Assembly (NCBI GenBank): GCA_046563655.1
Contig: CM102287.1
Span: forward strand, 7,254,001-7,318,000
Origin: Yuukianura sp. NJ FZ-2021
Taxonomy: Eukaryota
Reading direction: 5' to 3'
Length of the DNA stretch: 64,000 nt
This document shows, piece after piece, positions 36,632 through 64,000 of this stretch. Both the position numbers and the translations under genes were made by a program. The notes under the pieces are model-generated. The model was not told the DNA's origin. It ran no database searches and worked only from the letters and a program-made list of their open reading frames with translations. Each line of letters begins with the position of its first letter. Within the stretch, counting starts at the first letter, position 1.

Positions 36632-39600
36632 TCAAGTTTGTGCTGCTGATGGACGCGGTAGAATCGTCGATACTTTAGGCATTGCTGATGGACGCGGCAT
36701 AGTCGTCGATACTTTAGTCATTGCTGATGGACGTGGCATGAACGTCGATACTTTAGCCATTTCTGATGGACGTGGCATGGACGTCGATACTTTGCTGATT
36801 GCTGATGGACGTGGCAGAGTTGTAGATACTTTACTTGACATCGGACGTCGAATCTTCTCTTCTTGAAGTCGCTTCCAGCAGCAGCGTACGATCTGTGTAT
36901 CGGGTGCTAAGCGAAATGGTTTTGACCCGTCAGACTCCGTGTACCGGTTAATTTGGTATTCAATTAAGGTTTCATAGCCCAACACGTCGGAACACAATTC
37001 CTGCAAATCACGGGAATTGGTTAAAACTTCAGAAATTCATCTTAGGTAAGCTAATTTTCTTACGATTGACAATGCATTTGTATTTGTAGTCATGATGCCA
37101 ATGAACTTTTTGTCTTTCCCAATCCGGATCAATTCTTCCTCGACGTAGGTCATCAGCGGCACATTGTCAGCTTCCGTCACCAGTTCGTGTGTGCCCATCA
37201 TGAAGCTGTGGATGATCTTCTTCCTTCCCTTGGGCAACTTTAACCTAGTGTTGAACATTAGGTTAATATACCGTAACTTGACTTAAATTTAGATTACATA
37301 AGGTCATTACTTCGATGGAGCTTCAACAAAATCCAGAAAGTCCAGGACAGTTTGGATACCGGGAGCTGCCGGAACTCCTTTCGGTTCATCGTAGAGATCA
37401 AAGTTCAGCGCAACCGCAACTGCCTTCTTGTCTTCTCTCCGGCGGACAATAAAGCTGAAAGTAAAAACATTCTTTAAATACTTGTATTATTTAATTTTAT
37501 AGCTGTATAATTTTTATAATTATATGTTTTGTAGTTGATCTGAAGCTAAAATGGTTACCTCAACCCCTTCTTCTGGAGTGTCGGATACAAAGCACGCATG
37601 AGTTCCTTGAAGTCCTGATGTGACGCATTCGTGTACACTTCCAAGTCACCTTTTCGTGAGAAACTGTCGGCAATTATTCTGAAAAACAAAAAGTTATAAT
37701 AATCCAGTTTTCAATTTTTTCAAAATTATTTTTTCAAAATTTTTAGAAAATGGACAGCTAGTGGAGCTCTTTGACGGAAAGACTTACGCAGTTGCTTCAA
37801 TTTCGTGCATACTGGCGAGGAATTCGGAGTAGTACTTGTGATGATGCTTGAGTGCACCAGTGTTGATCGTCGCTCCAGGCTTGTTGTGCACAGTCGACAC
37901 AATTCTGGGAAGCATGTCTTTGAGGCTTTTGGCAGAAACGAACTCGTCCAAGCCTAAAAGCGTCCAATCAGGATTGAAGAAATTAAAAATCTGAAATTTC
38001 CGAACTCAGGCGCTGATTCTCAAAATTTTATGCCAGGAGGAGGAAGTTTAAAATTCAAAGTTACCAATATGAAACTTCTTCAGACGAAGTCTTGTGACGA
38101 CTGCGACGGAATTGAGCGACGTTCCACCGAGGTTGAAGAAAGATTCATCAAAGTTGTCAATGATGTCGGATGGATGAAGGTGAGTGACGTCGGAAATTGC
38201 TTGCACAAGTACTTTTGCTTGTTCCTCCAACTCTGGTGGCAAGTGGAGTTTACTCCAAGGATCCACACAGATTTCTGTTCGAAATCAAATTTTGAAAAAT
38301 TATACTTTTGATTTTTTGAATTTCCGATTTTCCAATAATTTTGAACAGATGATTTCGGATGCTTACGGTCAGCGTCAACCACTTTGCGTCGCTCGGTTTC
38401 AAAATGAGCCAAAAGTTTTTGGCGATCGATCTTTCCATTGAGGAGCAGCGGAACTTCTGAGATCAATTTGACCTCTGGAATTTCAAATGTTTTAAGAGTA
38501 TTCTTCAGCATTGACGCAATTTCAGCTTCGGTGACCTCAGGCTTTGCAGGAATTATGAATGCAACAATAACCTAGATTTTGAAGTTTTAGCTTTTTATAA
38601 AATTTTGAAATCTTTCTTTTTGATTTCCAGGTCCAAGTGCTCACTTGATCTTCTTTGTCAGGATTGAAGCAAAGAACAACTGCTTTGCTAATCAAATTCG
38701 CTTGACTGTTGAGAATCCCTTCAATTTCGGTAAGGTCAACACGATGACCTCTGACCTTGACTTGTGTATCGTTTCGACCTTCAAAAAACAAGGCTCTACG
38801 TCCATATTTGGTTCCGATCCGAACGAAGTCTCCGGTTTTGTACAAGCGATTGAAACCTGGAATCCAAACGAATCAGTCAAATTTCAGTTTTTTGAAGAAA
38901 AAAAATTCAATCATTAGCCTCATTTTTTTCGGATTTTGAAACAAGTTTCAGAAAAGCCGAAGTTTACCGAGCGTATTCGTAAATGGATTGTCCAGAAACT
39001 TGTCCGAGGTTTGCAAGCCGACATATCCAGAAGACAAATTGTATCCAGCGACATACAATTCTCCAGTTTGGCCTTCCGGAGTCACCTCCATGTTGTCATT
39101 TAGAACGTATAGAACAGTGTTAAATATTGGACCACCTGAAATGTCAAAGGTCAGGATCAAATTTTGAAAAGCAAGGTACAAATTACTAAAAATCCAAAAC
39201 TTAAATGATTTTTTTTCTTATCCAACCAATTGCAACGTTGGATTTATCCACTTTCTTGTTCAGATCTTCAGCGGATGTGAACACTTCGTATGCCACATCA
39301 CCCATATCTTCCGTGCTTCCATAAAAATTGCACAGCGTTGCATTTGGAAATTCTCTGAAAAAATCTTCCGCCAGCTCCCGATGAAGCGTTTCACTACTGC
39401 AGATCCAAAATTTGATGCTGTCCAGCTTCTCTCGCCCTTTCCCAGCTTCATCGTCATCAAGCAAGCGCAGAGCACCCAGAAGAGCTTGAAGCAGCGATGG
39501 AACCACAAGGATTCTTGTAATCTGCGCAGCATGGATGCTTCTAATGAAGAAATTTGGATTAGTCACAACGTGTCTTGAAAAGATGTGGATCCCAATTCCA

Positions 39601-40558
39601 CGCAAAAGCGGTCCAAAAATTTCAGGAATTGAGTCAACAAAGGTGAAAGCCGTTTTGGCACAGCATTTGTCCGTTTCTTCATAAGGAAACGTCGCCCACT
39701 GCCAGTACAATCGGTTCATGATGGTACTGAAATTTCAAAACCAAAACTAAAATTTTCAACTTTTTTTTTCAAGAATCGTATTGGTTGCTGGAAATCGGAA
39801 TCGCTGGAAACGACAAAAAGCGTCACATTAAATCTTACCTGTGTTTCAAACGAACTCCTTTGGGCGCTCCGCTGCTTCCACTTGTATAAAAAATGACAGC
39901 AACTCGGTCAGCCAGCGATTTGACCTTGGACGGAAACGGAAGTACCCGTGTTGCTTCAATTTCCTTCGACCTGTTCACAAGGTCATCGTATGTCGCCACC
40001 TCTGTTAGGTCCGTCACCGCTCCAAACTTTGACACCGTGGATGACAAGGCATCTGAGATGACCATGATCGGTCTACAACTTGTGACCATACTAACGACTC
40101 TGTTTTCTGGATATGTGTGGTCAATCGGAACATAGGCTGCGCCTAACTTATGAATTGCAAACATGGAGAAGATCAAGGCTTCGGATGGCGGGAGACATAA
40201 GGCAATGACCCAGTCACCATTTGGATTGTAGTTTCTAAGGTCCTTTTCCTTAGCAAAGGCTTTGATTGCTAAAGCCAACTTGGTTGATATCTTGTCCAAG
40301 TCCCAGAAGGTCGTTGACCTCTCGTCGTCAATGAGCGCCACTTTTGATTGGACGGAGAACTCTGTGACGTAGGTCCGGAAGTACTCCATGGTAGATGCAT
40401 TTCCTGGGTAAGACTCCAGTTTTCCTTGCATGATGCAACTCAATTTGCCTGATATGTTAATTAACCCAATTAATTCAAATTCAATGTAAAAGGTCAAAGG
40501 TCAACTCGTTTTTACATTGTCCACGACATCCGTCCGGCATCCTTGGAAGAAGCGACAT
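36632..40558 (-). CDS. ebony: Ebony-like single-module NRPS, copy 1 (adenylation, thiolation, aaNAT-like C-terminal domain)
   Basis: [49 protein letters not shown], carrier motif [24 protein letters not shown]. Confidence 0.92.
36640..36838 (-). repeat. 39-bp (13-aa) coding tandem repeat xKVSTxMPRPSAx, 5 copies, in the ebony copy 1 tail
   Basis: ttgctgatggacg...gtcgatacttt repeated five times. Confidence 0.9.
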
Positions 40559-42238: not shown

Positions 42239-45200
42239 TTAATTTGAGGTGGGAAAGGGTGGGGCAGTTTGTGTTTCCAGTTTTTTCCAACAGCAATTGA
42301 CTACTTGTGAGTCGGGAGCCAGTTTAAACGGCTTAGATCCATCCGGAGCTTCGTATTGGTTCACTTGGCACTCCACTAAAGTCTCATATCCAAGAAGTTC
42401 TGAACAGATTTGCTTGAAAAAAGACAAAATCATCGTAAAACTGAAAATTTTGATTTCAAAATGTTGTTATTTTCAAAATTCAAACTGGACAATGCTATAC
42501 CATGGTCAGTGGATTTGTGTTCGAGGTCATGACTCCCAGGAATCCTTTGGTTTTGCCAATCCTTGTGTTTTCCTGTTCCATGAAAGTGACAAGGGGAACG
42601 TTCTCTGCCACAGGAACGCTTTCATGCGTTCCCATCATAAACGAATGCAGAATTTTGTTCCTTCCTTTCGGCAATTTATCACTAAATTATGAAAAAATTG
42701 TAAGAATTGGAGTTTTTAAGGAAAATTGTGCTAAGGTTCAGTAAATCTGGTTACCGTTGTCGACTTTCAAAAGAGTCCAAGAAGGTCAGAACAGTGTGGA
42801 TCCCTGGAGGAGCAACAACGTCTTCCGGTTCATCGTAAAGGTCAAAGTTCAAGGCCGTGGCGACTGCTTTGTTGTCTGATTTCCGACGAACGATGAAGCT
42901 AAACATTTCGGGCATTTTTTAGTTATTGTTAACTTAACTTGAAATGGTTCTGACACAAGTGACCTTTGACCTCACCTGAGTCCTTTTTCCAACAAAATTG
43001 GAAACAGCGTTGTAATAAATCCCTTAAAATCTTGAAAAGTTGCGTTTGTATATACTTCCAAGTCACCTTTTCTCGAGAAACTGTAGCCAATGATCCTAAA
43101 ATTCAGAACAATTCAACAATTTTTTTAAACCAAAAATTTTGTACCCATAAGCTCCCGAATGCAGGAATGCAGGATGTATTCTTTAAAAAGCTAATAGGAA
43201 TTCAGCATATTTATGAATTTTTTTAAATTCTTACGAGCTTGCTTCCTCAACGTCACTTTCCTTTAGAAACTCGGCATAATACGGTTTCAAAGTTTCCGAA
43301 TCTTGCCGAACCTCGTTTACGGAATTACGGGAAGACGAAGAACGAATTTTCGAAACCATTTCTCGCAGCGATCCTGCAGTGACAAACTCGTCGAGCCCTA
43401 GAAACAAAAATTTCTAGTGTAGCTATTTGGACCTCTTTGTCTTTGTTGACTTTGTTGTAACTTTTCTCAACAGTCGCATCTGTTGCAACAGTTGAGTCAG
43501 TCTGAACTCGGGGACGAAATTTCGAGTAACTAATATACTAAACTGCTAGAGTTACCGATATGAAAATTCTTCGCTCGGAGTTTGGTTACAACTGTGACGG
43601 AATTGAGCGAAGTTCCGCCGAGATTGAAGAATGAATCGCCAAGTCCTTCGGCAACGTGCCGTTCCGGCACATACGTCACTTCGGAAATGGCTTTCACCAA
43701 AGCTCGTGCTCGTTCGGTAAGTTCCGGTGGAATGTCCGTGAAAGTCATCTCAGATCCAGCTTTAGAAGTAGTTTTTGGAAAATATGAAATTCAAATTTTT
43801 ATTTTGGTTAACAAAATTAGAAGCAAATTCAATTACCACTTTGATTTGTGTGACGTTCTGCTTCAAAGGTGGACAACAGTCGCTGACGATCTACTTTTCC
43901 GTTTACGAGTAACGGAACTTCGGAAATTACTTTCACTTCGGGAACTTCATAAGACCTCAACGTTGCTTTCGCTCTGGTCAAAACTTCTTCAGCAGTTACT
44001 TGCTTTGTAGCGGGAACAACAAATGCAACTAAGGCCTGCATTCAAACGGCCAAAGGTCAAGGTCAAGTTGTTGTCTTACTCCAGGCATTATAAGTCAGCT
44101 TACTTGATCTTCTTTTCCAGCATTGTAGCAAAGCACATACGCTCTGCTGATCAATTCCGATTGGCTGTTCAGAACAGCTTCAATTTCGTTTATGTCAACT
44201 TTTTGCCCCCGAACTTTGACCTGGGAGTCACTTCGGCCTTCGTAGAGAAGCGTCTGTCGTCCATTACTTGTGAAAACACGGACAAAGTCTCCAGTTTTGA
44301 AAAGAGTAGTGAATCCTAATAAAACATTTTCACAATTCAAATAAGCTTGAATTCAAAATTTTATTTGTAAAATCAAAAATTTTGACTAGCCAGTTTCGGT
44401 TGAGAACAAATTTGGAAGAAATTTGTCGCCATTTGCAATTGCGACGTACCCCGAACACAAATTTCTTCCAGCAACGTACAATTCTCCAATTTCTCCAAAC
44501 GGCACTGCCTTCAACTCTTCATCCAAAATGTACAAGATCGTATTGAAAATCGGGGATCCTAAAATCACAAAAGTTTGCAAAGTTGCAGTAAATTTGCAAA
44601 ATCTGCTGAAAACGCTTACCTATCGGAACACGGATCCCATCGACTTGCTTCTTCACATCTTCAGCACTACTGAACGTTTCAACTGTCACATCCGCCATGA
44701 TTTCCGTACTGCCGTAGAAGTTGGCCAAAGTTTTGTCTCCATTTGGAAACTGAATGAAGAAATCATCCAGAAGATCTTTCTGCAGTGTTTCGCCACTGCA
44801 CACCCACAGTCTAATGCTGTCCAACTTCCCGCTTCCTTGAACTTCATCTGACCTCAAGAGGTCAAGTGTGGACAGCAACGCTCTTAACAAGGATGGTACT
44901 AGAACGAGTCGAGTTATTCCAGCAGCATGGAGGTTTTTAATTAACAAGCTAGGATTAGACACAATTAGTTTCGAAAAAATTTGGATTGAGAAGCCACGCA
45001 GAAGCGGTCCGAAAATTTCGGCTACGGAGTCCACAAATGTCAAGGCCGTTTTGAAACAGCATTTTTCATCTTCAGCAAACGGAAAAGTTTCCCATTGCCA
45101 GGAAAGTCGGTTCATAATAGCACTGGAAAATACATAATGCTAAGGAAATTTTGGAATAAGATTAGGTAATTAGGTTGGTCAACCTAAAGTTAGTTTGCTG

Positions 45201-45813
45201 ACCTGTGCTTGAGACGGACACCTTTAGGAATTCCACTACTTCCGCTAGTATACAACACAATCGCGACTCTATCAGCTAAACACTTTGCTTCTGATGGAAG
45301 TGGCAGTACGTCTTTGATGGTTTCAAATTTTAGCGCTCGGGTCAAAAGGTCATCGAAAGTGACCACCTCCGTTTGGTCTCTAACGACATCAAATTTTGAA
45401 ACAGTCGATGGAACAGCATCAGAGATGACCAAAACTGGTTTGCAACTGGTGATCATACTGATGACACGATTTTCAGGAAAGGTGTTGTCTATTGGTACAT
45501 AGGCAGCACCTAACTTATGAATTGCAAAAATTGAAAAGATGACATTTTGAGATGGTGGAAGGCAGAGGGCAATGACCCAGTCGTTGTCAGGATTCTGATT
45601 TTTCAGATTCTTCTCTTGAATTAATTCGTAAATAGCCAAAGCAAGACGCGTCGAGGTCAAATCCAGAGTTTCAAAAGAAATTTTTGTTTGTTCAAAACCA
45701 ATGGCCACTTTGTTTTTAATTTCTGGGAATTTTAACAAATTTTGCTGAAAATAGTCTGTAGTTGAAACAGTTTCTGGAAATTCAGCATTCCGTCCTCGAA
45801 GAATGGATTCCAT
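42239..45813 (-). CDS. ebony: Ebony-like single-module NRPS, copy 2
   Basis: [67 protein letters not shown]. Most intron positions match copy 1. Confidence 0.93.
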
Positions 45814-46610
45814 TTTTTATCAAAGTTGAAATGCAATATTTAACGAAAAATTGTATTGGACTGCCCCTTCTTAAATCAGGAAACTGATTTGTGCCAATAA
45901 ATTGATCAACTGAAGTCAAAATTCGCAATTCTGTTTGATTTTCTGCTTTATTCCTCTCCATGGAGAATGAATGAAGCCGTAGCCGGTTTAGGACGCACAG
46001 ACGAACAGGAATTGTATGACGTATGACATTTGTATAGCGTATGACGAATAAATTCAACAGAATTTTCGCAATTGAAAAACAGAGGAAATGGAAGAACCAC
46101 AACGTTTTCGTTTTTTCCTGTTGGAAAATGCTTTCTTCCAAGAAATTTTCCAAAGGAAGTTCAATTTTCTATATGCTTAGAAACCAAGACTGAAAAGTTA
46201 AACTAGCCAAAAAAGTTGAAAATAGTACTTATTTAATAAATTATTCGGGCTTTTTGATTTGTGGGAGTTTATAGTCCATTTTCATTTCTAAACCTAAACA
46301 GCTTAACTCTGAATGTGAAACAAAACTTAATCAAACGCCGAGAAAAGCAAAGGGAAATGGCCGAATTTGCTCCGTAGTAACTTGCCTCAACCTAAAATAA
46401 CTTTTAATCAACGTTGTGATGTAGAGAACGTTACATAACTCCATCCGTCATCCCAAAAGTTTTGTCATAAAATCAAACATCATGTTACATTAATTGAGAA
46501 AAATCCATGAACCCGATAGGCAGTGACAAAATTTTCATTAAAATACTACTGTCGGTTCCTATTTCAAATTCTAAAGCTGAATTTTCATTGTCCAGGTTGA
46601 AATTTTTGTT

Positions 46611-48674
46611 TTAGCCCAGTCGTTGGTATCCTGTTGTTCCGTAGGACGTAGTCTGTGGAGCCTTCTCACTCGTCAACTGAATTCCGACATTAGTTGCTGG
46701 AATTCTGGCCAAAATGCGCAGAACTTCGTCTGGTGACTTTTCAGCCAATTGTTTAGCGCTCAACGGAAACGATGGCCCTAACGGAAAGTTTTCGTCAGAG
46801 AAGATCCATTCTTCAGCTTGTGGCAAATGGTTGCCCACAATCACTTCAATCTCGCGCCGAATCACATCGCAAAAATCGTCAAGAGGCTAAAAACAGAAAT
46901 TTTGGTTGAAGTTAGTTAGAATTCTTGTACCCAACAATAGCTACAAGACCTACTGTCAAATTTATAACGGCTACATGAAAATTGTATGTTCACCAGATCA
47001 TTGTCGTCGTATCCAAACGGATTTTCAATTTCTTGTCCAATTGCGAGAATGCCGAGGAGGCAGAATGCGCCGAGGACGAGTACTGGGACAGTGTACCATC
47101 CGAGGTCGTTCACAATTTGATACGGAATGGACAAGATGTAGAGCCAAACACTTTGTTGCAAATGGACGGAGTAGGCCAATGGAATTGGAGTGCGAAGGAT
47201 TCGCTCGAAGTTGCACAAAACATCAACCAGATTGCTCAGTGCTAGTCAGAAATTAGTTTAGTTACTATTTTATTTTATTTTACATTTTAAATTGCCTTTG
47301 CAATCTTTTTGAACTTCACGGTTAAAAAACTTTTGATTGTTTAAAACCTTACAGCCTTTGATAGCGTTGAGAGCCCATGGTTGTGCCAGTTTGTTTTCGT
47401 CCAAGTAGTTGATGTAGGACAAGTAGTAGTATGAGATTTCTAATTAAAATTTAAAAAATCAATGCATTTAGATATCCTTGTTTTTATCTTTCGATAAACT
47501 TGAGATATTTAGGTTCAATGTTTTTGGGATAATCTAAAAATGTTAAACTTATATTTTTATAAGAACTTTTTATTTTATAAGAACCTAATTTTTATTAAAG
47601 CTATGTAGTTAGGAGTATCGTGTTAAAGCACAATTTTAGGAAAATATTGACATACCGATTGGAATATTTGTAGGAGTGGCCATGTCAAATGCCTTCTTTC
47701 CTTTTTTGAGTTCCTCGGTGTGCTTGACTTGAACGTCCAGTGGCACATTTGAACTTGGCGTGTTGAACCGAGGAAGATGGCGAATCAGATCCTTCAACTG
47801 AAAACACCAAAACGAATAATTTTCCACTCCACTTTTATAATTAACTTACAAATATAAAATTATATACTTCCTGCTTGAAAAAGTAGAACACTTACGTCGG
47901 GATAGTCATAGCCATATTCATCTCTGAGGTAATGTTTGACGGACACAACAAAAGCCAGACTGAGGTTGAGGGCCGACCGGCGTTCTACGAGGGCCTTGGA
48001 TGTCAACTGCTCTTGCCCCGCTGCAGTCGTGTTCACTCCGAGCCAAATTGCTCGCGTCATTTTTCGAACGTCCTGAATCATTTCCGTCCATAGTTTTCTG
48101 CCTTCCCAGTACCTATAAGATGAAAGAAACATCGAAAAATCGCAAAAACCATTGTGTTTGGGTGGTTTTGTCTATCAATGTCAAACTTTGACATTCAAAT
48201 TAAAATGTACCAGAACCGGAATTATCTTACACAAGAGTTGAACCGGTACACGGTTACTGTGCAATGTGCATACTCCTGGGTTTACTTAAAATCAACAAAT
48301 TTCGTGGAGTGCATGCAAAGGCGCCTGAATAATGTTATTTAATATAGGAAAAGTTGAGTAATTCTTAGATAATGTTTGGATTACTTCGATTTTTCTATTA
48401 ATTAATTAGTTCAACAAGAAATTTCTATACAAATGACATGGATTACTCACCTATCATAGGCGTTGTTAGTACGAAAAGCCAGTAGAAGTGAAACGACCAT
48501 TCCAAGAATACTGATCAGCGTCTGTGGAAAATTCATTTTGAGCGCTGGAACGTAGATATCTAAAGCGACAATTCCAGCAGAATAAATTCCCAACAGCACA
48601 ATTTGCCACCATATTGCCGGCAGTACAGTTCCACGTATTCGAACCCACCAAAAATTACTGGCCCAGAAGCCCAT
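46611..48674 (-). CDS. Bestrophin-like anion channel of the bacterial/fungal UPF0187 (YneE/VCCN1) type, multi-exon
   Basis: LLLAFRTNNAYDRYWEGRKLW, VKHYLR, NIP, ERILRTPIPLAYSVHL, IGQEIENPFGYDDNDLPLDDFC. Confidence 0.9.
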
Positions 48675-50055
48675 GTTCCTCTGCCAAAAATTTTACAACA
48701 AACAATCGATCACTAGCAATTTTAGAACAATAAATTGCTAGAAATTTCCAATCAATCGATTACAAATGTTAGAAGAATCGATTGTGATTACAATCATTCC
48801 CAACTTCAGACTGAACGCACAAAATTTGGGACGATGATGCGAAAGAACAAGTGAAAAAAGAAATGGCTTGATAGTTTTGAATTCAGTCAAACAAAGTTTG
48901 GAATGAAAATTAGTGCTAGAGGGGTTTAACCTCTTGGATTTTGTAAGAAACCGGATTTTTAGGAAGGATCATGAAAACAAAACACTTACATTGGTGTTCA
49001 TCATGCAAAGATTCAGCAAGTTGTTCTCTCAAAAAATTGTTGATTATAAAAACAAGTTTTTCAAAAGGTGATTTTTATGAAGCAGGAGATGAACTTTTGT
49101 TAAGGTGAGGCCAAGAGCATGCAAGTGACCTCTTCAGAATTCAGTAATTTCCAAGCACATGCGTCCAGATTTCCATCGTTAAGTTATAAAATCAGTCCTA
49201 AAATATTGCAAATTCATTACAAAAGAAAAGCATCGTAAAAATCAATTTCTCCGCCAGAAGCTTCAGATTAAGCACTTTCTCTTCGGCCTAAGTCTACTTT
49301 AAATTCGTTTTTAGAAATTTTGAAAAGCATTTTGAAAATATTTACAGCATAATTAGCGAATTATGAGTATAATCTCTAACCTGTCACTCCATTGCAATGC
49401 AAAGGGGAGGAATTGGCTGGAATTGAGTGCACCATGTAGAATCTCAAAGACGTGCTAACCGGTTTCGGTGAAAAGTGGATTGGCAAGTAACTACCGCTAG
49501 TTCCTAAATTAAATTAATAAGACCATTACTATTTAATTATTGCACATTATCAGAATTTGGACTATAAAAATCCAGTTAGTAAATTAACTTCGGTAAGAAT
49601 GACCCGATTTGTGGTTGTTCTCTGGTCAAAGCTACTTCTGCGGTTAACAATCTCCATAATTCCACAATTTCAATTTTGATACACAAAACACAAGGCTTGT
49701 TTCGCATTCAATATTTAAGAATCATAAATGGTCCAAGGCATGATTTATAAACTTTTTCTGTTCCACTGACCCCAGAGAAATCGTCACAGTCAAAGGTCAA
49801 AAATTTCCAGAGAAAAAACAAAACTTTGCGTTTTGCAACATGAACAGGAGCACGTCGGTGGCAAGCTGTCGCGTCTATCCGTTTGTTTTACAATGCGAAA
49901 TTTTTAATCCAGAATAATTTTTGAGATTTTAAAATGTGTTGCTGAAGTAGAAGCTCCATCTTCACTAAAATTCTGTTTCGATTTGTCACATTCCTGTCTT
50001 TTGTGATGGCAAGTCAAACTCGAACTTTGGGTAGATTTCATTTGTAGCGTTCACT

Positions 50056-53000
50056 TTATTTGTCTGAATTTGGATTGGCATCGCCTTGAGGTGGTTGAAG
50101 TGTGGCAGGCTTTAGGATTTTGTGGAAAGACGACATTGTGAGTGTCCCTGGTGCCAAATGAAATGGACGAACTCCGCTTTCCGCATACTCGTTCACTACA
50201 AAGTCGTCCAGTAACGTAAACTCATAAACGTCTAAAAGAAGATCCTAAAATCACAAAAAAAGCATCAATTAAAGCTGCGAAAAGCAACAGACTTATGCTA
50301 TCATAATTCTACACAGTAGTTAAGCTAAATGATTCGTTTCAGTACGACTTCAGTTAGAATTAAGCTTAGTTATGAGAAGTCTAACCCGAATAAGTTGATT
50401 TGACGATGCCAGGAAGAAACTTTTGAATCCATCTGACTGAGCACGCGCAAGCATTTCGTTAATCAAAAGCACGATTACTCGGACGTTTTCTGCAGGACTT
50501 AGTAACACACTGGTAGCCATCATGAAGCACTCGTAAACCTCGTTAGCCGCTTCTTGAATTGCAAGTTTCTCCCTGTCCAAAAAAGTCAAAATTCATTAGG
50601 ACTCTCATTTTTTTTTAATTTGAGTAAGAATATTTAAATACAAAGTAATGAGAAAAGCAGAAATTTTTGGAGCTTACAAAACTTGTCCTTTCACTTCATG
50701 TCCAAATTCGACAACGTACTTGAGTGTTCCAAGTGCAGCATCGGTACCCAAATCGGTGAAAAAATCATAAGAAAGTGACGCTCCGACTACTTTAGAATCC
50801 TGATTCCGGATTACAGCGATACTCATTTGCTGTTCAAGAATTTTGTCCCAGTTGGCATTCAAATATGAAGTAAATTGTTCTTCAGAAACCATCGCAATTT
50901 TCTCGACATCGCCATGTCTTGCGTATGTCGTTGAGAGCAATCTAATAGAAAGTGGAATGATTTGGAGTTTATGATTATTTTTTAAAAGTTACAAAAAGTT
51001 GTTTGAACAAAATTGACAACTTACTGGACAACTTCACGTTGATGTTTGGCTTCCATGTACTTTGGAGAGTACAACTTCTTAGCTCTGGAATCCGCTACCA
51101 GCATTTGTAATGGCGATGCAGCAACAGCATCTGTTTTGACTTGGTTCGATTTCCGGAAATTTTGAAGCGTTCTCCGATTTTCCATTAGATTGATCAAATC
51201 CTCTAAATTTTCAGCTCCAATGAAATCTTGAATTGCTGCAAAGACAAAAAAAAGTTTGTTTTTCGTTTTTTTTAATCAAACATCCTCGGATTATGAAAAC
51301 GAAAACTTACAGATTGGATATCCCTTTTTGTTTAAATAAAGCACAACGCAAATGCTGTTGCATGAAGTTCCACCGAGAGCGTAAAAAGACAGATCCAAAG
51401 ATTTGATTGACAATTTGATCGGAATTGAACAAAATTTATATAAAGCTTCCAAAAGAATTTTTCCAGCTTCTGCGGCTTCTCGATTTTTCATTTTCAGCTT
51501 TCCCCAGTCGTCAAATCCTAAAAATCCAAAGTGATCCAATTCATCCAAACGATTCCAAGTGAAAAACTGAAATTCAAATCTACAAAATTTTCAAAATTTG
51601 AATCTTACCACTCTCACGTCCTTGTAGATAGTCGTTCAAAAGTCGATGTCTGTCTAGTCGTCCATTTGCAAGAACTGGAAATGCTTCCACCACTCGAATT
51701 GTCGGAATCATGAAGTTTGGAACCTTTTCTTGCAAATATTGGGACACTTCGGCGTTTGTGAGTTTGGAAATCCAATCTGGTTTTGGTAACACAAAAGCCA
51801 AGACGGCCTGAAAATTCAATAGTAATGAAAACAATGTCAAATTGAATTTGTACTCTAAATATCAGTGTTACCTGGTCAGCTTTTCCTGGATGAAAGATGA
51901 AAATGTTGACATGGTCCACCCCTTCGTGCGCCTTGAGTATGCTTTTGATATCCTCAATCACAAATTCATATCCTATAGAAACAAAAACTCAAAGTTCAAA
52001 CCCAAAATTTTTGTGAATTTTTGTTTTTCGAAAAACGTATAAGCAAGGCTACCGTTGTGCCGCAAGAAGGAGTCGCCCCGACCTTCCAGCAGAAGCCGAA
52101 ACTGTTTGTCTGCACAAACTACGTAACGACCATAGTCGCCCGTCAAAAATAAGCGGGAGTACTCTATATTCAAAAATATAACGACATAAAAATCGTAACA
52201 TATTTTCAACAATAAATCAATTTATAGCTTTTTAAGTACTTTGGGCACTGTCGTATGGATTGTTGATGAAACTGAAATCTTTGGTTTTCTTGTCCATGTA
52301 GCTCATAGCCAGTGGCATTCCAGCGACACAAATTTGTCCTTGCTCGAAATTGATGGCTAATTCTCGATTGACATTCATGATGTAAACTTTTGTGTTGTCC
52401 ATGACTTGACCTAAAGCAAGCCAAAAAAAAGTTATGAGTTTGGTGATATTTGACATGAAAAGATTATTCTTTTAGATTTTAAGTTTTACCGAGCACGATG
52501 TGACCAGCGACGTAACGTCGTTTAACTTCCTCAAAGCTTTTGAATCGCTCACAGACTACATCTCCGGATAGCTCCGTGTAGCCGTACATCGTCGCAAGCG
52601 TTTTTCCATCTGCCGGGAAAGCACTGAAAAACCGACGTGCCAACTCGTAGCTGACGACTTCTCCTTTGCATGCCACAAATTTCAAAACTTTCAAACGCAT
52701 CCTCGATTCATCTCGGCCAATCACCCGACATTCGTTGAGAAACTTTCCAAGTGCAACGCAGCTCAGACTGATTCGAAAGATTCTGTCTGCTTCCAACTTT
52801 TCAATCAAAGTGTGCATATTGTTCATGTCTTGAGTAGTGTAAACGTGGAGCGTCACTCCTCGCAGAAGCGGTGCAAATATTTGATGAACTGATTCCACAA
52901 AGGTCGCGGGAACATTGAGACAGCAGTTTCCTTTTTTCGTATAAGGAGCATACTTCCATGTCCAAGCGATCCGATTGATAATTGACTTGTGTGAAAGTCG

Positions 53001-53838
53001 TACTCCGCGTGGGACGCTGTGGAATCCGGTGGTTGCGATGATCACGGCTGGTCGTTCATTGGCTCTCGTTTCTGAAGGAAGATTTAAAACCTCCATGACT
53101 TTGTCCCTTGGATTGGCTGGAATGTCAACTTCGGGATTGCTTCCGGATTGCTGGATAGCCTTCCACATTTCTTCGATTGTAACAAAGTATGGGACGGCAG
53201 CGTCTCCATCGTTTTTCGGAACAGGTTTGGATGCTTCGTGAATCACAATCGTTGGACGAAAACTTTTCAGGATTTGAAGAATGACGCCGGAAGGATCTGA
53301 AAACAAAAACAGAATCGTATCGTGCTGCTAGGACAAGTTATACTAGATAGTCCGAGATACTTACAGTTTGGATCCAGTGGGAGGTAAGTGCCGCCAATTT
53401 TCAAAATGGCGAAGATGAGCACAATTAGCTTCTCAGAAGGCGGAAGACACAAGCAGATCAGAAGATCATCATCGGGGTTACGTATGACGATGGGATTTCC
53501 TAAACGTTCTATGAGCTGATTTGCAATGACTGTTGACAAAGTGTGAAACTGTCCAAAAGTCAATTTTTGAGTGTAAAAGCAAACAGCATCCTTGGAGGCT
53601 ACAATTTTCTTGCGTCGAAGCTCATTATGAAACAGAGTCGTGAGTGTTTCGTCCAGTCCTGGAATGTCCCGTTCCGGTCCAGATAAAATTCCAGGTTCTT
53701 GTTCTGTTGTTTCCAAAAAAACATTTAAATCAAATCAAAGAATCAAAGAAAAAATAAAAAGCAAATCATAAGTCCAATTCCAATACTCAAGCGTCTCAAC
53801 TCACCTTCCACACAGCATTCTGCACAACAGCAACTCAT
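50056..53838 (-). CDS. Highly diverged ebony-like NRPS, copy 3, with degenerate catalytic motifs
   Basis: Same architecture (NPDDDLLICLCLPPSE, GGTYLPLDP, LFLTGD, FYALGGTSCNS, CFMMAT, AENV). Exons appear open and spliceable. Confidence 0.85.
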
Positions 53839-54716
53839 CTTCCAGGGTCAGATCAAAATTCGGGATTTTTCAAAATCTGGTATTGTTTTTCAGTATCCGG
53901 TTCGGTAGCTCAGTCCACGCTTGCGTGACTCGAATAAACAGGGACGAAAACATTCCAGCGGTGTAGCCACTGGAAACTGCCAAAAAAGTTTGATTAGTCA
54001 AAACAAGTGTTTTCATAATTTTCATAAATCCAATTTTGACAAGAAAAGCTTTTTTTTTGTAGCCCACCGGATTTTTTTTTCTACAAAATTTTGCACTGTG
54101 GTTGTTTTCTTATTTTTTTGGTTCTCATGGAATCAAATAAATTTTGTAAACAAACTAACTTATCAGCGTATTTTGACCCAAAAATTGACGTACCGATTGA
54201 ATTTTTGCCTCAAAATGCCTCACCCTCTAGTGACAAACCCAATGACAATTAGCGTTCTTGAAGACTTGGTCTTCGACATTTTCTTGCGGAAATCCCCGGA
54301 AAATGCTCAGTTATGACACAAGGCTTATCCAAAGTACATCCAAATTCTTGTTGATTTCCTTGGTTGCAATAATCATAATTTGCGAATTTGTGATTTTGCA
54401 TTCATAACTGAACTTTATATTGAGAATTGGCGTCACCACTTTCGACACGCTAAATCCTTACTTGCAAAAAGGAAACTCGGTGAATTTAAACTATTCTTTG
54501 TCTTTTGTGTCTTTCTGGCCGGTCGTCAATCAAGTATATGGGTACAGTGTTCACTGTTTTATTCTTTCAACCGACTCAGTTGTCAACGGTAACGTTGTGA
54601 TTAAAGTTTGGTACAAAAAACGACCGAAATTTTTTGTTTAGAATCCGACCACTGTGTTTTGATTTCAAAATTCATTGTCCAAAATTTTTCTTGAGTGTTC
54701 CACTTAAGTTTTGAAA

Positions 54717-55997: not shown

Positions 55998-58900
55998 ATG
56001 GGTAAACGCAGGGGACTTCTATTCGAAACCTCCGCGGTGTTTGTTCTAAAACTATTTGTGTTAGTTGTACAAATTCTGATTCAAGCTCCACCAGCGTCAG
56101 GAACGCCGAATCATCCTCCAGTGTTTCTAGCCGGCGGCGATCTCTCCAGGTTTTCAGTCCGGGAAGACACTGCAGTTGGATCTGTAATTTACAGGTAAAA
56201 CAAAATCAACGCTAGTTTTCAAAAAACATAACCTAGCTTATGAAATTAGTCTAACATGATCTGCGTACTAAAACACAACTCAATCATCTTCGACCGTCAA
56301 GATTCTACATTGTCAATTAATTGCTTGAGTTAAAAAAGCCAAAAACATAAATTAATTAGTCAAGTAATTAAACTAAACGAAATTTAGGTTGAAGGGAAGC
56401 GACCCAGAAAATGGCGAACTCACTTTCAGCATCAGCGGTGAATATTTCCGTGTGAATCGGAAAACAGGAGACATTTCTCTCATCAAAGGTAATGAAATTG
56501 AAATTTAGCGTCTTGTGATTAGTTGTTGTTGCAAAATGCTAAAAACTTGCATTGTTTTTGTTGTTCAGCTCTTGACCGTGAGAATGAGGCTTCCATTGAT
56601 GTCATCATCAGTCTCACAGGTAACTAGAAGCATTCAAATGAAATAAGATTGTCTCTAAATTAATTATTTGATTAATTGAAATTAGACCTGTACCACACAT
56701 GTAAAGAATGGCTTTGATTTTCGTTGCAGATGACGGGAACGGTGGTGAACCGGAAACGGTTTCACTGCGCCGTGAAATCTTGGTATCCGATGTCAACGAC
56801 AATCCGCCAGTATTTGAAAATACTCCGTACAATTTCAAAGTTAGCGAAAAGACTCCCGTGGGCACAACCATTTTCTCTGCTATTGGAATCACTGATGAGG
56901 ACTTTGGTCAAAATGCTGAAATTGAGTTGACCTGTGACACGAAGAGGTCACAACTGGCTTGTGAGTTCTTTGGAGTCACAGCGGAGGCAATTGGTGAAGG
57001 AAATTATATTGGAATTGTAACACTCATAAGGCCATTGGACTATGAGAAACATTCATCTTATTCGCTCGGTCTGGTGGCAACTGATGGACAGAATAGTGTC
57101 AATGCCCTTGTGGCTGTCAATGTACTTGACGTCCAAGGTATTTTCTGAAATTACCAAATTAAAATTAAAATTGCCATACAAATTAAATGTTTTGCGAATA
57201 ATTGGCATTTTTTAGATCAATCACCTCGGTTCATTGGCGGTCCATATGTGTTCAAAGTCAAAGAAAATTCCATCGCTGGAACAAAAGTGGGAGAAATTCA
57301 AGTCCAAGATGGAGACACTGGAAATCCAAGAGACATGCAAATTAAGTTAATCGATGAAGCACAAAATGATTACTTCAGATTGAGCAACATTCGACGTGAT
57401 CCATTTGACGGTACAATTTCAGCTACGGTGGAGATTTCTGAAGAGACGTTGGACGCCGAAGAAGAATTTGTTCGAGAAAACTTAGGTAATTTCTAAATTG
57501 CTAAAATTAGTTCAATTTTCGTGGAGACATCAATGAGTTTTTCGTCTATTTTCTTCCAAATTCGTCATTCTTGACTCTTTCTAGGTGTTTACGAGCTAAC
57601 TTTGGAAGCTCGTGAATTTCCGCTGAACGCTGACGATACTGAACCCACGTTGGTGACTCGCGTCGGTGTAGCCGTCATGGTTGAAGACGTAGACGACAAT
57701 TTGCCAACATTTGAACCAGCCCAGTATCCACAAATTTTGAAAATTCCGTATCGTCCAGACGAATCCTACACATTTCCGAATTTTAAGCTTCAAGTAGAAG
57801 ATGTAGACGAAGATCCTGCTCATGCGCAGTTCCATCTTCAGTTAGACTGGACACTTCCCACTCCAGTGGACTCAGTATTTGCATTTCTGACTCCATCCAA
57901 CGCAAATCCAGTCATCCGATCCAAGAGTATTGTGACCCTAGAAGTATTGAATATTTCACTTTTAGAGCCCGGGTCAAAGTTCAACCTTGAAATTGGAGCT
58001 TACCAGAGAGATCACCTAGTATCCAAAATCAACATTCCGATGGAAGTAGAAGAAAGTGTTAGAATTTTGCCACAATTTAACTCAACTATTTTCCGAGTGT
58101 CAGTTCCAGAAGACGTGTCCAAGGGAGAAGTGATTACAACAATTTCGTTGAAGAATGGTCACCTCCTTTCCAGTGTCAACTATTCTCTAGTTGGCGTAAA
58201 TTCGGAAAAGTTTGAACTCAATTCGGATACTGGAGAGATCCGTTGCGGAATTGAAAAGTGCCTGGATTACGAAAGAGAGCGTAGTCACTTCTTTTTAGTT
58301 CGAGCAAAATCGGGAGAAAAAGTTGACGAGGAAACGTACGCTTTGTTTTACTTGGACACTCAGCCAAGGAACGACGAAAGTCCAGTGTTTGAAGAAAAAT
58401 CAGCCATTCGACGATCTGTTCCAGACGGAACAGTGACCTTTGACCCTCCATTTGTTGTTGGCGCTGTTGATTCGGATGTAAATGACCAATTGGAGTATGC
58501 AGTCACGGATCACTCCATGAATTCTTCTGGAATTTATATTCAGCCGGCCACTGGGGAGTTGAAATTGAAGAAGCGTCTCAGGTTCTACAAAAATCAAAAT
58601 TTTCAACAAAAAAATTTTTTTGTTTTTTGAAATTTTTGTGAACGTATTTTGAAATTTCAGTTGGGCTGAAGGAGGAGAGCACAAACTAACCGTAACTGCT
58701 ACAGATAAGTCCGGGAACACTGCATTCCAGTCTGTTCTGCTCATCGTTCAGCCAGTTCTGAACATTCCACCGCGGTTTCCTTCGGATGAACAACAAATCG
58801 AAATTCCTGAAACTACAGAGCAAAAATCAGTCATTTACCGGGTATCTGCGCATGATCCAGACGGACAAGACATTGCTTTGCGCTACTACATCCACTCACA

Positions 58901-61900: not shown

Positions 61901-62531
61901 CTGAGCTTTTGTCAACTGAAACTTCCGAGTTCCTCCGATTGGGTCGCTGGGCAGACGAAATCCAAACGTTTCTGAATCAACCTAAATCAAATTCACAAAT
62001 TAACAATGGCGTTTTTCGCCTTTTAACGTTTGACCAAAGTAATGCTCCAGAAGGAAGGACAATGTAAGAACTTTCCTTACCTCCTTTTCAAACTCCAGGT
62101 TTCAAAATTTCAAAATTTTCTGGAATTTCAGGGTTTGTTTCCAACTTTTGGAGAATGAGAACATGATGAGTCAGGAGAAATCGCTTCAAATCCTCAGCGC
62201 CCCCGACATCCAAGATATCTTTCTAAAACATTCATTTGCTGAGCAAATTCAAAAGGTCAGACCCAAATAATTCAAAAATTCAATACATTTTAGCAGTTTT
62301 TAGACGTACCTTCAAAATTTTGAAAACGTCGTTATGAAATTGTCATTTTCTTGAAAACAGGGATGTCCGCAGCGACCTCAAGGTCCAGCGAAGTTGACGC
62401 TGGCAGGATCCCCAGGGAGGTTCTGGGTAGAAACTTCGCTGGTCGGAATCGCTTCCGTAGTGGCAATCGCTACGCTCTCGTTCATTACCATTCTGTGCCT
62501 TGTGAACAGAAACAAAGTAGAAAAACTGTGA
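55998..62531 (+). CDS. Cad74A: Non-classical cadherin, Cad74A/CDH23-like, multi-exon
   Basis: Signal peptide; first repeat NHPPVF..GDLSRFSVREDTAVGS..DPE..FSISG..LDRE..VIISLTD..ETVSLRREILVSDVNDNPPVF; many DxNDN and LDYE motifs; TM segment LVGIASVVAIATLSFITILCLV. Confidence 0.85.
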
Positions 62532-63529: not shown

Positions 63530-63967
63530 TTAGTCGAAAGTGACTTTCTTATTCTGTGGTGGCGCTTCGCTATCAAACCCTCCGCTCTTCCTTGGATTCG
63601 CTCCGAACCCGCCACGTCCTCGGCCACCTCCTCCTCTTGGACCACCGCGACCACCACCACGCCCGCCGCCACGACCTCCTCCTCCACCCGACGGACAGTC
63701 AAAGCTCATGTGACCCTCTTGACCACATTTAAAGCATCCTGATCCTCTACCTCCACCGCCACCACCTCCACTTGGACATTCACGACTGATGTGGCCTTGT
63801 TCACCACATTTGAAGCAGCCTGAACCTCCTCCGGAGTTTCGGTCACCTCCTCCTCCACGGCCACCGAATCCTCCTCTTCCTCCGCGCCCACCTCGAAATC
63901 CTCCTCCTCCACCGCCAGAAGCTTCTTCGTTAGGACATTCTCGAGCAAAGTGCCCAGTTTGTTGACA
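63530..63967 (-). CDS. Last exon of an RGG-rich, CCHC zinc-knuckle protein with a nucleolin-like C-terminus (gene continues beyond the window)
   Basis: Translation not in the ORF track: [58 protein letters not shown], preceded by an AG acceptor. Confidence 0.85.
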
Positions 63968-64000
63968 CTTTAGAACACAAAACGAAGACTTTGAAGATTT

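What the first reader, a model, noticed from the sequence alone, without database searches (positions are those of the whole stretch)
46611..48674. Intron-containing fungal/bacterial-type bestrophin in an animal genome: probable horizontal transfer
Seen: FRTNNAYDRYWEGRKLW, ERILRTPIPLAY and EIENPFGYDDNDLPLD are UPF0187/YneE hallmarks, and the metazoan bestrophin RFP motif is not seen. The segment HYLRDEYGYDYPDLKDLIRHLPRFNTPSS..PTNIPIEISYY resembles my recollection of early-diverging fungal homologs. It has host-style introns and clearly animal neighbours, so contamination is unlikely. Inference: a domesticated horizontally acquired anion channel.
Basis: partly seen in the sequence, partly recalled or inferred. 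Interest (0 to 1): 0.75.

Follow-up and report, generated by a model that had tools for sequence, protein, structure and literature searches.

The report
Fungal-type bestrophin channel gene in springtail-like genome
An intact, intron-bearing ion-channel gene of the fungal bestrophin type sits among animal genes and most likely came from a Mortierella-like soil fungus, but the same gene family was already listed as horizontally acquired in a springtail genome paper of 2016.

Summary
A six-exon, 397-aa gene lies on the minus strand at 46611-48674, with five GT-AG introns and one terminal stop. It matches Pfam PF25539, Bestrophin_2 (bacterial/fungal type), but not the animal bestrophin family.

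Among named proteins, the only animal relatives are springtails (Collembola); all other close relatives are early-diverging fungi. In three trees the window protein, the springtail proteins and Mortierellomycotina proteins form one clade nested inside the fungi, with support 100. Holding the fungi together without the springtails is rejected (p-AU 0.016). A single springtail origin is not rejected (p-AU 0.48).

The gene looks domesticated. It has AT-rich introns, host-like coding composition, strong amino-acid constraint and cadherin and A2M/TEP genes on the same 64 kb.

It is not new. The Orchesella cincta genome paper lists three homologs in its HGT table and a 10-copy Bestrophin/UPF0187 family absent from ten other ecdysozoans. 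What is new here is the donor placement and the shared intron.

The parts
48451..48674 (-). Exon 1 (ATG at 48674). It encodes TM1-TM2 and the FRTNNAYD(R) motif and ends in phase 2 inside the R75 codon (AG|G).
   Evidence: PF25539 50.6 bits; hydrophobic segments 17-45 and 47-71.
48113..48450 (-). Intron 1, 338 nt, GTGAGT...TATAG. The same position and phase occur in four related intron-bearing metagenome loci.
   Evidence: shared AG|G junction in L002, L005, L032 and L050 but not L006.
47896..48112 (-). Exon 2 (YWEGRKLW ... HYLRDEYGYDYPD).
   Evidence: PF25539 43.5 bits.
47798..47895 (-). Intron 2, 98 nt, GTAAGT...TTCAG. In L002 the intron lies about 9 codons upstream instead.
   Evidence: A contig from a second study (X5 record 29) spans exon 2, intron 2 and exon 3 with different intron letters.
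47656..47797 (-). Exon 3 (LKDLIRHLPRFNTPSS ... PTNIPI). This is the eukaryote/fungus-specific insert that bacterial homologs lack.
47440..47655 (-). Intron 3, 216 nt, GTATGT...TTAG. L002 has an intron at the same place.
47353..47439 (-). Exon 4 (EISYYYLSYINYLDENKLAQPWALNAIKG).
47242..47352 (-). Intron 4, 111 nt, GTAAGG...CTAG. L002 has an intron at the same place.
46994..47241 (-). Exon 5, the most conserved part (FERILRTPIPLAY ... EIENPFGYDDNDL), covering TM3-TM4 and the acidic stretch after them.
   Evidence: PF25539 101.2 bits; matches KpBest residues 171-292 through the relatives' profile.
46887..46993 (-). Intron 5, 107 nt, GTGAAC...TTTAG. It is absent from both copies on the related locus L002.
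46611..46886 (-). Exon 6 (PLDDFCDVIRREIE ... GYQRLG, TAA at 46613-46611), a cytosolic C-terminal tail with no Pfam match.
   Evidence: The tail of the ortholog model has low confidence (pLDDT below 50 for residues 369-396).

Best explanation
This is a functional, domesticated gene for a bestrophin-fold ion channel of the fungal (Bestrophin_2/UPF0187) type. It sits in the genome of an arthropod that is most probably a springtail. Its lineage entered an ancestor of springtails by horizontal transfer from a fungus on or near the stem of Mortierellomycotina. It then acquired or kept spliceosomal introns, took on host composition and duplicated into a small family. By homology it should assemble as a pentamer with four membrane helices per subunit and a central pore. 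It most likely conducts anions (chloride, bicarbonate or small organic anions), possibly gated by calcium. Shown here: the gene model, family membership, animal context, nesting within fungi next to Mortierellomycotina, and amino-acid constraint. Inferred: the direction and single number of transfers, the pentamer, ion selectivity and gating.
For: Gene and family. The 397-aa ORF is intact with five GT-AG introns. PF25539 scores are above threshold on three exons. A profile of 12 relatives matches the solved pentameric Klebsiella bestrophin (4wd7/4wd8 and others) at about 1e-37, bestrhodopsin 7pl9 at 3e-29 and plant VCCN1 7ek1 at 6e-22. The AlphaFold model of the 82%-identical ortholog P0003 (pLDDT 72.3) finds 4wd7_A first (probability 1.00, TM-score 0.73 on the target).

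Host context. A2M/TEP domains lie at 1-1410 and cadherin repeats at 56705-62067 on the same 64 kb. The gene is single-copy in the window. CDS GC is 0.471 and GC3 0.505, inside the neighbours' GC3 range of 0.35-0.52. Introns have GC 0.279. Contigs of four DNA runs from two studies cover all 30 bins of 43500-54500, and some bridge exon-intron borders.

Distribution. With exon 5 as query, 11 of the best 120 rows are named animals, all Collembola. With P0003 as query, 6 of the best 120 (out of 1556) are named animals, again all Collembola. All other named rows are fungi, apart from one bacterial MAG row.

Phylogeny. The clade {Mortierellomycotina + Collembola + window + unnamed environmental rows} has support 100 in three analyses: FastTree with 245 rows, IQ-TREE LG+C20 PMSF with 79 rows, SH-aLRT, and IQ-TREE LG+F+G4 with ultrafast bootstrap. 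Its outgroups are Glomeromycotina, Mucoromycotina, Zoopagomycota, Dikarya and chytrids; some of these were named through. Holding 48 named fungi together against the springtail-like rows plus bacteria costs 38.97 lnL (p-AU 0.0157).

Signature. PTNIP is found in 73 of 75 Mortierellomycotina, 8 of 12 named Collembola and the window. It is found in 0 of 11 Zoopagomycota, 0 of 28 Glomeromycotina, 0 of 7 Mucoromycotina, 0 of 7 Dikarya, 0 of 5 chytrids and 0 of 1 bacterium.

Constraint. Against L001, 325 of 396 residues are identical, pN is 0.124 and pS is 0.828 (saturated).

Function by homology. A review table lists Aspergillus nidulans Best1 (AN2251) as a Ca2+-activated anion-selective channel passing citrate, propionate, benzoate and sorbate (passage read). 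The abstract of PMC4890181 describes plant VCCN1 as a voltage-dependent chloride channel (listing).

Prior record. Three O. cincta homologs are in that genome paper's HGT table, with non-metazoan scores of 255-291 against metazoan scores of 35-42.
Against: No tool names the window's species, and the window's own subclade (window, P0003, P0314, P0004, P0121, P0008) holds no named organism. 'Springtail' is therefore an inference from the nearest named relatives.

Springtail-like rows are not one clade in any free tree. They form an unresolved grade around Mortierellomycotina. This could also mean several transfers, or a transfer from animal to fungus. Monophyly is merely not rejected.

The AU rejection of 'fungi together' is moderate (p 0.0157), and the groups were named after I had seen the first tree.

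Most database hits are unnamed, and only the best 120 or 150 rows of each search were visible. Other animals lower in the lists cannot be excluded.

No RNA run is listed for the organism. The expression evidence is indirect: intronless contigs of unnamed environmental origin. L001 ends without a poly(A) run.

The immediate neighbours are divergent adenylation-domain genes of unclear origin.

Ion selectivity cannot be read from sequence. By my recollection the solved bacterial member conducts cations, not anions.
Confidence: 0.8

Rival explanations
1. Several independent transfers from related fungi into different springtail lineages, rather than one ancient transfer followed by duplication.
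For: Springtail-like rows fall into at least three or four lineages in an unresolved grade with Mortierellomycotina. The window's subclade contains no named springtail.
Against: One springtail clade costs only 1.40 lnL (p-AU 0.48). Intron 1 sits at the identical codon and phase in the window and in 4 of 5 intron-bearing relatives from different subclades. This is simplest with one integration, unless the donor gene already carried that intron.
Confidence: 0.12
2. Vertical inheritance from the common ancestor of animals and fungi, with loss in nearly all other animals.
For: Animals and fungi are sister kingdoms. A distantly related bestrophin family exists in animals (PF01062 gives a weak 20.4-bit match).
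Against: The protein is nested deep inside fungi next to one subphylum, with support 100. Placing it outside the fungi is rejected. It shares a derived motif with that subphylum only. The family is absent from ten other ecdysozoan genomes in a published ortholog table.
Confidence: 0.03
3. Transfer in the opposite direction: a springtail gene passed to the ancestor of Mortierellomycotina.
For: In the free trees Mortierellomycotina sits inside the springtail grade, with weak inner support of 84-95.
Against: The joint clade is itself nested among other fungal phyla. All 73-75 Mortierellomycotina sequences seen fall in this one clade, so it looks like their ordinary vertical copy. This scenario needs two transfers instead of one.
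Confidence: 0.03
4. Fungal contamination or a chimeric assembly.
For: Springtails graze on fungi, and the coding sequence is fungal in type.
Against: The best fungal identity is only 43-47%. There are five AT-rich introns and host-like composition. Animal genes lie on both sides in one N-free 64-kb window. Contigs of two independent studies cover the gene, its introns and its flanks.
Confidence: 0.02

Closest known systems
Orchesella cincta Bestrophin/UPF0187 family (orthomcl5020; Ocin01_08902, _08903, _15013 and others), listed as HGT in Faddeeva-Vakhrusheva et al. 2016 (PMC4987106, supplementary Tables S5 and S6)
   Same: Same Pfam family and the same Mortierellomycotina-plus-springtail clade (P0011, P0049, P0053, P0177). 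The paper already scores it as foreign and of fungal best hit.
   Different: These proteins are 39-48% identical to the window protein and lie in other subclades, so they are paralogs rather than orthologs. The paper's best hit was Rhizophagus (Glomeromycotina); here the sister group is Mortierellomycotina. The family is not mentioned in that paper's main text (0 occurrences of 'bestrophin', listing).
Mortierellomycotina Bestrophin_2 proteins (e.g. Linnemannia, Podila, Mortierella, Actinomortierella)
   Same: 43-47% identity over nearly the full length; one clade with support 100; shared TPTNIP[IV]E[LI]SYY signature.
   Different: The fungal proteins are longer (409-506 aa), with a longer loop before the PTNIP motif. 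Their gene structure could not be examined.
KpBest, the Klebsiella pneumoniae bestrophin homolog (PDB 4WD7/4WD8)
   Same: Same fold and family. It was solved as five chains.
   Different: About 24% identity. It lacks the roughly 40-residue insert of exons 2-4. It has AANDL where the window has the acidic DDNDL (alignment). By my recollection it conducts cations.
Aspergillus nidulans Best1 (AN2251)
   Same: A fungal member with measured channel activity: Ca2+-activated and anion-selective, passing organic anions (review table).
   Different: It is a Dikarya protein. Dikarya sequences fall in a separate clade from the window. No direct comparison with AN2251 itself was made.
Animal bestrophins (BEST1-4; Pfam PF01062, RFP-TM)
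   Same: Distant superfamily relation: exon 5 gives 20.4 bits to PF01062. The NPFG-acidic stretch resembles the animal calcium clasp, by my recollection only.
   Different: Below the family threshold on every exon, and no RFP motif. It is not a member.
Plant thylakoid VCCN1 (PDB 7EK1)
   Same: Same broad UPF0187-type family (6e-22); an anion channel (abstract of PMC4890181).
   Different: Much more distant. It is an organelle protein of plants.

Membership tests
Bestrophin_2 / UPF0187 (Pfam PF25539) | Score above Pfam's gathering threshold | tested here: met
   Exon 1 scores 50.6 bits, exon 2 43.5 bits and exon 5 101.2 bits against a cut-off of 27. Together they cover profile positions 14-135 and 192-273 of 288.
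Bestrophin_2 / UPF0187 (Pfam PF25539) | Bestrophin fold like the solved member KpBest | tested here: met
   Met by proxy only. The model of the 82%-identical ortholog P0003 (pLDDT 72.3) finds 4wd7_A first (E 1.3e-10, probability 1.00, TM-score 0.51 on the query and 0.73 on the target). The window's own spliced protein could not be sent to the folding tool.
Bestrophin_2 / UPF0187 (Pfam PF25539) | Pentameric assembly with a central pore | not tested
   Five copies exceed the size limit of the complex predictor. Inferred from the five-chain KpBest entries.
Bestrophin_2 / UPF0187 (Pfam PF25539) | Ion conduction | not testable with these tools
   Needs electrophysiology.
Animal bestrophin (Pfam PF01062, RFP-TM) | Score above the gathering threshold, and the RFP motif | tested here: not met
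   20.4 bits against a cut-off of 24.2 on exon 5, and nothing on the other exons. RFP is absent.
Horizontally acquired gene in an animal | Nested within a donor group with strong support; placement outside the donor group rejected | tested here: met
   Support 100 in three analyses. AU p 0.0157 against fungi held together.
Horizontally acquired gene in an animal | Absent from other animals | tested here: inconclusive
   All named animal rows among the best 120 of two searches are Collembola (11 rows, 6 rows). However, 1436 further hits and most of the 150 representatives were unseen or unnamed. Published table: 0 copies in ten other ecdysozoans.
Horizontally acquired gene in an animal | Physically joined to native genes | tested here: met
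   Cadherin and A2M/TEP genes lie on the same N-free 64-kb window. Short contigs of two studies tile the gene and its flanks. No single read or contig spanning the gene and an unambiguous animal gene was seen.
Horizontally acquired gene in an animal | Domestication: host-type introns, host composition, selective constraint, expression | tested here: met
   Five GT-AG introns with GC 0.279; GC3 0.505 within the neighbours' range; pN 0.124 against pS 0.828. Expression is shown only by proxy, through intronless environmental contigs L001, L003 and L004.

The most novel reading that the evidence does not exclude
One ancient transfer from a stem-Mortierellomycotina fungus into the common ancestor of springtails, before Symphypleona and Entomobryomorpha split, founded an animal-specific family of calcium-gated anion or organic-anion channels. 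Its first intron, at the same codon and phase in distant paralogs, was either gained before the family radiated or carried over from the fungal donor gene. The second case would be a rare instance of a fungal spliceosomal intron surviving in an animal.
Probability: 0.3. Interest if true: 0.6.

Novelty: new member of a known kind. Interest (0 to 1): 0.35.

Why it matters
Springtails are known to carry many foreign genes, and most attention has gone to enzymes for cell-wall breakdown and antibiotic synthesis. A foreign ion channel kept under constraint and multiplied (10 copies reported in O. cincta) is a different kind of acquisition, because a membrane channel has to fit into animal cell physiology. 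The sister relation to Mortierellomycotina, which are common soil fungi, gives a concrete donor hypothesis. It also provides a possible time marker for both lineages. The family can be tested directly in the laboratory springtail Folsomia candida. It is not a first discovery: the family already sits in a published HGT table.

Tried and rejected
- **Own genome:** none is held.
- **RNA evidence:** no RNA holder is listed among 5 runs, so the reads laid were DNA contigs only. No listed piece spans the whole 11-kb stretch.
- **PMSF tree with bootstraps:** the 'careful' run was tried four times (901 s) and never finished. I replaced it with LG+F+G4 and 1000 ultrafast bootstraps (read).
- **Withdrawn numbers:** one search printed wrong support values because re-rooting shifted the labels. 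Those numbers are withdrawn in favour.
- **Naming environmental relatives:** of 10 proteins looked up, only P0177 has an organism name (O. cincta).
- **Naming the host:** the protein atlas search with the A2M exon gave mixed, uninformative clusters.
- **F. candida genome paper supplements:** 0 occurrences of bestrophin, UPF0187, PF01062 or Fcan01_14539. The spreadsheet is held cut and the PDF supplement cannot be read, so this says little.
- **File 1 of the O. cincta supplements:** not searchable.
- **Literature searches:** 'bestrophin' + 'springtail' gave 0 papers. 'bestrophin' + 'Collembola' gave 1 paper, on a nematode by its title, not read. 'UPF0187' + 'horizontal gene transfer' gave 1 paper, on Salmonella by its title.
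- **dN/dS:** not computable because synonymous sites are saturated. Only pN and pS are given.
- **Pore residues:** I tried to map pore-neck residues of KpBest from memory onto the alignment. My recalled numbering did not fit the chain, so I make no claim about pore residues.
- **Pentamer prediction:** not attempted, because it exceeds the size limit.
Full report
**Observation.** On the minus strand an ATG at 48674-48672 opens a reading frame that runs through six exons to a TAA at 46613-46611.
- Exons: 48674-48451, 48112-47896, 47797-47656, 47439-47353, 47241-46994, 46886-46611.
- Introns: 338, 98, 216, 111 and 107 nt, all GT...AG with pyrimidine-rich acceptors.
- The joined CDS is 1194 nt with one terminal stop, giving 397 aa.
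- The model is confirmed independently. The spliced protein aligns residue 1-397 to residue 1-396 of database protein P0003 at 82% identity. P0003 is encoded without interruption on a 1399-nt environmental contig, L001.

**Family.**
- Pfam PF25539 (Bestrophin_2, 'Bacterial/Fungal Bestrophin protein') is matched by 3 of 6 exon pieces at 50.6, 43.5 and 101.2 bits against a cut-off of 27.
- The animal family PF01062 stays below threshold, at 20.4 against 24.2 bits.
- A profile of 12 relatives (alignment A1) matches the solved Klebsiella bestrophin homolog at about 1e-37. It matches the bestrophin part of a bestrhodopsin (7pl9) at 3e-29 and plant VCCN1 (7ek1) at 6e-22.
- That alignment leaves profile positions 132-209 unmatched. 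The eukaryotic proteins therefore carry an insert of about 40 residues, encoded by the end of exon 2 and by exons 3-4.
- An AlphaFold model of P0003 (pLDDT 72.3, pTM 0.62) finds 4wd7_A first in the PDB (probability 1.00, TM-score 0.73 on the target).
- The fold and profile results are by proxy. The spliced window protein itself cannot be handed to those tools.

**Context.**
- The window holds A2M/TEP domains (1-1410), a 5-phosphatase (20740-22342), an RPE65-type oxygenase (32102-32866), three tandem adenylation-domain genes, and cadherin repeats (56705-62067).
- The bestrophin gene lies between the second and third adenylation genes. Cadherins and A2M/TEP make the animal context.
- The adenylation genes do not help. 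The exon at 45190-45816 finds only weak matches: an insect ebony at 34%, and bacterial NRPS at 28-30%.
- The gene is single-copy in the window. Its CDS has GC 0.471 and GC3 0.505, inside the range of neighbouring coding pieces (GC3 0.35-0.52). Its introns have GC 0.279.
- Contigs of four DNA runs from two studies cover all 30 bins of 43500-54500.
  - One contig of 1234 nt spans 47892-49121.
  - A contig from the second study spans exon 2, intron 2 and exon 3, with different letters in the intron.
- No RNA run was listed.

**Relatives.**
- Exon 5 searched against longer proteins gave 176 hits, of which the best 120 were shown. The 11 named animal rows are all springtails (Folsomia candida, Orchesella cincta, O. 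dallaii, Allacma fusca). The remaining named rows are early-diverging fungi, plus one bacterial MAG row.
- The full-length ortholog P0003 gave 1556 hits at E <= 1e-10, best 120 shown. The 6 named animal rows are again all springtails; the rest are Mortierellomycotina, Umbelopsis, Zoopagomycota, Glomeromycotina, Basidiobolus and one chytrid.
- Over the full length, the window protein is 46-53% identical to the named full-length springtail proteins (39% to P0049) and 43-47% to Mortierellomycotina proteins. It is 37% identical to the one named bacterial hit.
- A profile search of 1.84 billion representatives found 9863 members at E <= 0.001.

**Phylogeny.** From 311 proteins I kept 244 that cover at least 60% of the window protein and are under 800 aa.
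- FastTree on these plus the window (245 rows, 376 columns) gives a clade with support 100. It holds 73 Mortierellomycotina, 8 named springtail rows, the window and 14 unnamed rows. Its neighbours are Glomeromycotina with Mucoromycotina, Zoopagomycota, a clade shown to be Dikarya, and a chytrid clade; the last two were named through.
- A hand-picked 79-row set was then analysed. It held 18 of 75 Mortierellomycotina, 9 named springtail rows, 8 environmental rows, other fungi and 2 bacterial rows. The partial models P0006, P0020 and P0022 were left out.
  - Under LG+C20+F+G4 (PMSF) the same 36-row clade has SH-aLRT 100 and Mortierellomycotina is monophyletic at 100.
  - Under LG+F+G4 with 1000 ultrafast bootstraps both splits have 100. 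One search's values were mislabelled by re-rooting and are withdrawn.
- Holding the 48 named fungi together against the springtail-like rows plus bacteria costs 38.97 log-likelihood units (p-AU 0.0157).
- The springtail-like rows are not one clade in any free tree. Forcing them together costs only 1.40 units (p-AU 0.48).
- A 36-row tree including the partial models shows that the window's subclade (window, P0003, P0314, P0004, P0121, P0008) holds no named species.

**Signatures.**
- In the alignment, bacteria lack the HLPxxxTPSS segment.
- The motif TPTNIP[IV]E[LI]SYY is shared by springtail and Mortierellomycotina proteins only. Other fungi have (S/G)NLPLEI-type sequences at that site.
- Counts for PTNIP:

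| Group | With PTNIP |
|---|---|
| Mortierellomycotina | 73 of 75 |
| Named springtail rows | 8 of 12 (two of the four without it are partial models) |
| Window | yes |
| Zoopagomycota | 0 of 11 |
| Glomeromycotina | 0 of 28 |
| Mucoromycotina | 0 of 7 |
| Dikarya | 0 of 7 |
| Chytrids | 0 of 5 |
| Bacteria | 0 of 1 |
| Unnamed | 19 of 185 |

**Introns and relatives' loci.** A metagenome scan returned 78 loci.
- L001, L003 and L004 carry complete uninterrupted ORFs on contigs of 1.27-1.40 kb, as spliced transcripts would. L001 ends without a poly(A) run.
- L002 (3440 nt) carries two tandem copies about 82% identical to the window protein.
  - They have introns at the window's positions 1, 3 and 4.
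  - They have no intron 5.
  - Their second intron lies about 9 codons upstream of the window's.
- Intron 1 splits the arginine codon of AYDR|YWEGR as AG|G in the window and in L002, L005, L032 and L050, but not in L006. That is the window plus 4 of 5 intron-bearing loci.
- These loci are closest to springtail proteins, not to Mortierellomycotina, and belong to different subclades. The intron is therefore old, or it came with the donor gene.

**Constraint.** Against L001, 325 of 396 residues are identical, while nucleotide identity is 0.715. pN is 0.124 and pS is 0.828, which is saturated. The protein has therefore been kept under purifying selection across a deep split.

**Literature.**
- The O. 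cincta genome paper (PMC4987106; main-text passages and supplement passages read) defines HGT by an h index, a linkage test and, for borderline cases, a tree.
- Its Table S6 lists three homologs, with best hit Rhizophagus irregularis and 'Additional phylogenetic check: no':

| Gene | Metazoan score | Non-metazoan score | h |
|---|---|---|---|
| Ocin01_08903 | 41.6 | 291 | 249.4 |
| Ocin01_15013 | 35.4 | 271 | 235.6 |
| Ocin01_08902 | 40 | 255 | 215 |

- Its Table S5 lists orthomcl5020, annotated Bestrophin/UPF0187 (IPR021134). It has 10 copies in O. cincta and 0 in ten other ecdysozoans. These are the same proteins as my P0011, P0053 and P0049.
- The paper's main text does not contain the word bestrophin (listing).
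- The F. candida genome paper reports 809 foreign genes, 32.8% of them fungal, and 330 shared with O. cincta (passages). Its held supplement gave no bestrophin hit, but it is held cut.
- No paper in the library joins 'bestrophin' with 'springtail'. One joins it with 'Collembola': a nematode paper by its title, which I did not read.

**Mechanism.**
- By homology the product should be a four-helix membrane subunit. Hydrophobic segments lie at 17-45, 47-71 and 269-296, and the ortholog model has long helices. It should assemble into a pentameric pore like KpBest.
- I commit to an anion channel. The tested fungal member (A. nidulans Best1) is reported as Ca2+-activated and anion-selective, passing organic anions. 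Plant VCCN1 is a chloride channel (abstract).
- The acidic NPFGYDDNDLPLDD stretch after the last helix corresponds to PFGTAANDLPLN in KpBest. By my recollection it resembles the calcium clasp of animal bestrophins. That is a lead, not a test.
- Selectivity, gating, tissue and role are inferred, not shown.

**Verdict.** It is sharpened to a Mortierellomycotina-like donor, and the data are compatible with a single ancient event. The kind of event and this very family are already on record for a springtail, so this is a further member of a known case.

The main open points are:
- the unnamed host species;
- the unresolved number of transfers;
- the lack of direct RNA evidence;
- the untested channel function.

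Noticed in passing
window 39201-40500 (-), 44519-45816 (-), 52479-53734 (-): Three tandem adenylation-domain (AMP-binding) genes bracket the bestrophin gene. The exon at 45190-45816 finds only weak relatives: an insect ebony at 34% and bacterial NRPS at 28-30%. Whether they are native ebony paralogs or another foreign family is open.
   Followed up: partly
window 7732-12414 (+) and 7749-12110 (-): Very long open frames run on both strands (1560 and 1453 aa) in a stretch with GC 0.53, GC skew -0.24 and AT skew +0.31. Only a sub-threshold NusG-like match was found. It looks like a large low-complexity or repetitive coding region and is unexplained.
   Followed up: no
window 53776-54500: Contig word depth rises 5- to 15-fold over the neighbouring bins in all four runs, for example X1 from about 260-360 to 1397 and then 3953. 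There are many loose ends, so this is a high-copy repeat, probably a transposable element.
   Followed up: no
window 63530-64000 (-): An open frame running off the window's end holds three zf-CCHC zinc knuckles. It may be the Gag of a retroelement or a CNBP-like gene.
   Followed up: no
window 2228-3730 (+), 4703-5896 (+): Two long open frames (500 and 397 aa) have no Pfam match.
   Followed up: no
L002 31-931 and 1744-3231: A related metagenome contig carries two tandem copies of the ortholog. The window has only one copy. Intron 5 of the window is missing from both copies, and intron 2 is displaced by about 9 codons. This points to recent intron turnover.
   Followed up: partly
P0283 (2569 aa, 10 stretches) and P0309 (2001 aa, 8 stretches): Two very long database proteins contain eight to ten matched stretches of the bestrophin profile. 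They may be tandem fusions or mis-joined tandem gene arrays. They were excluded from the trees by the length filter.
   Followed up: no
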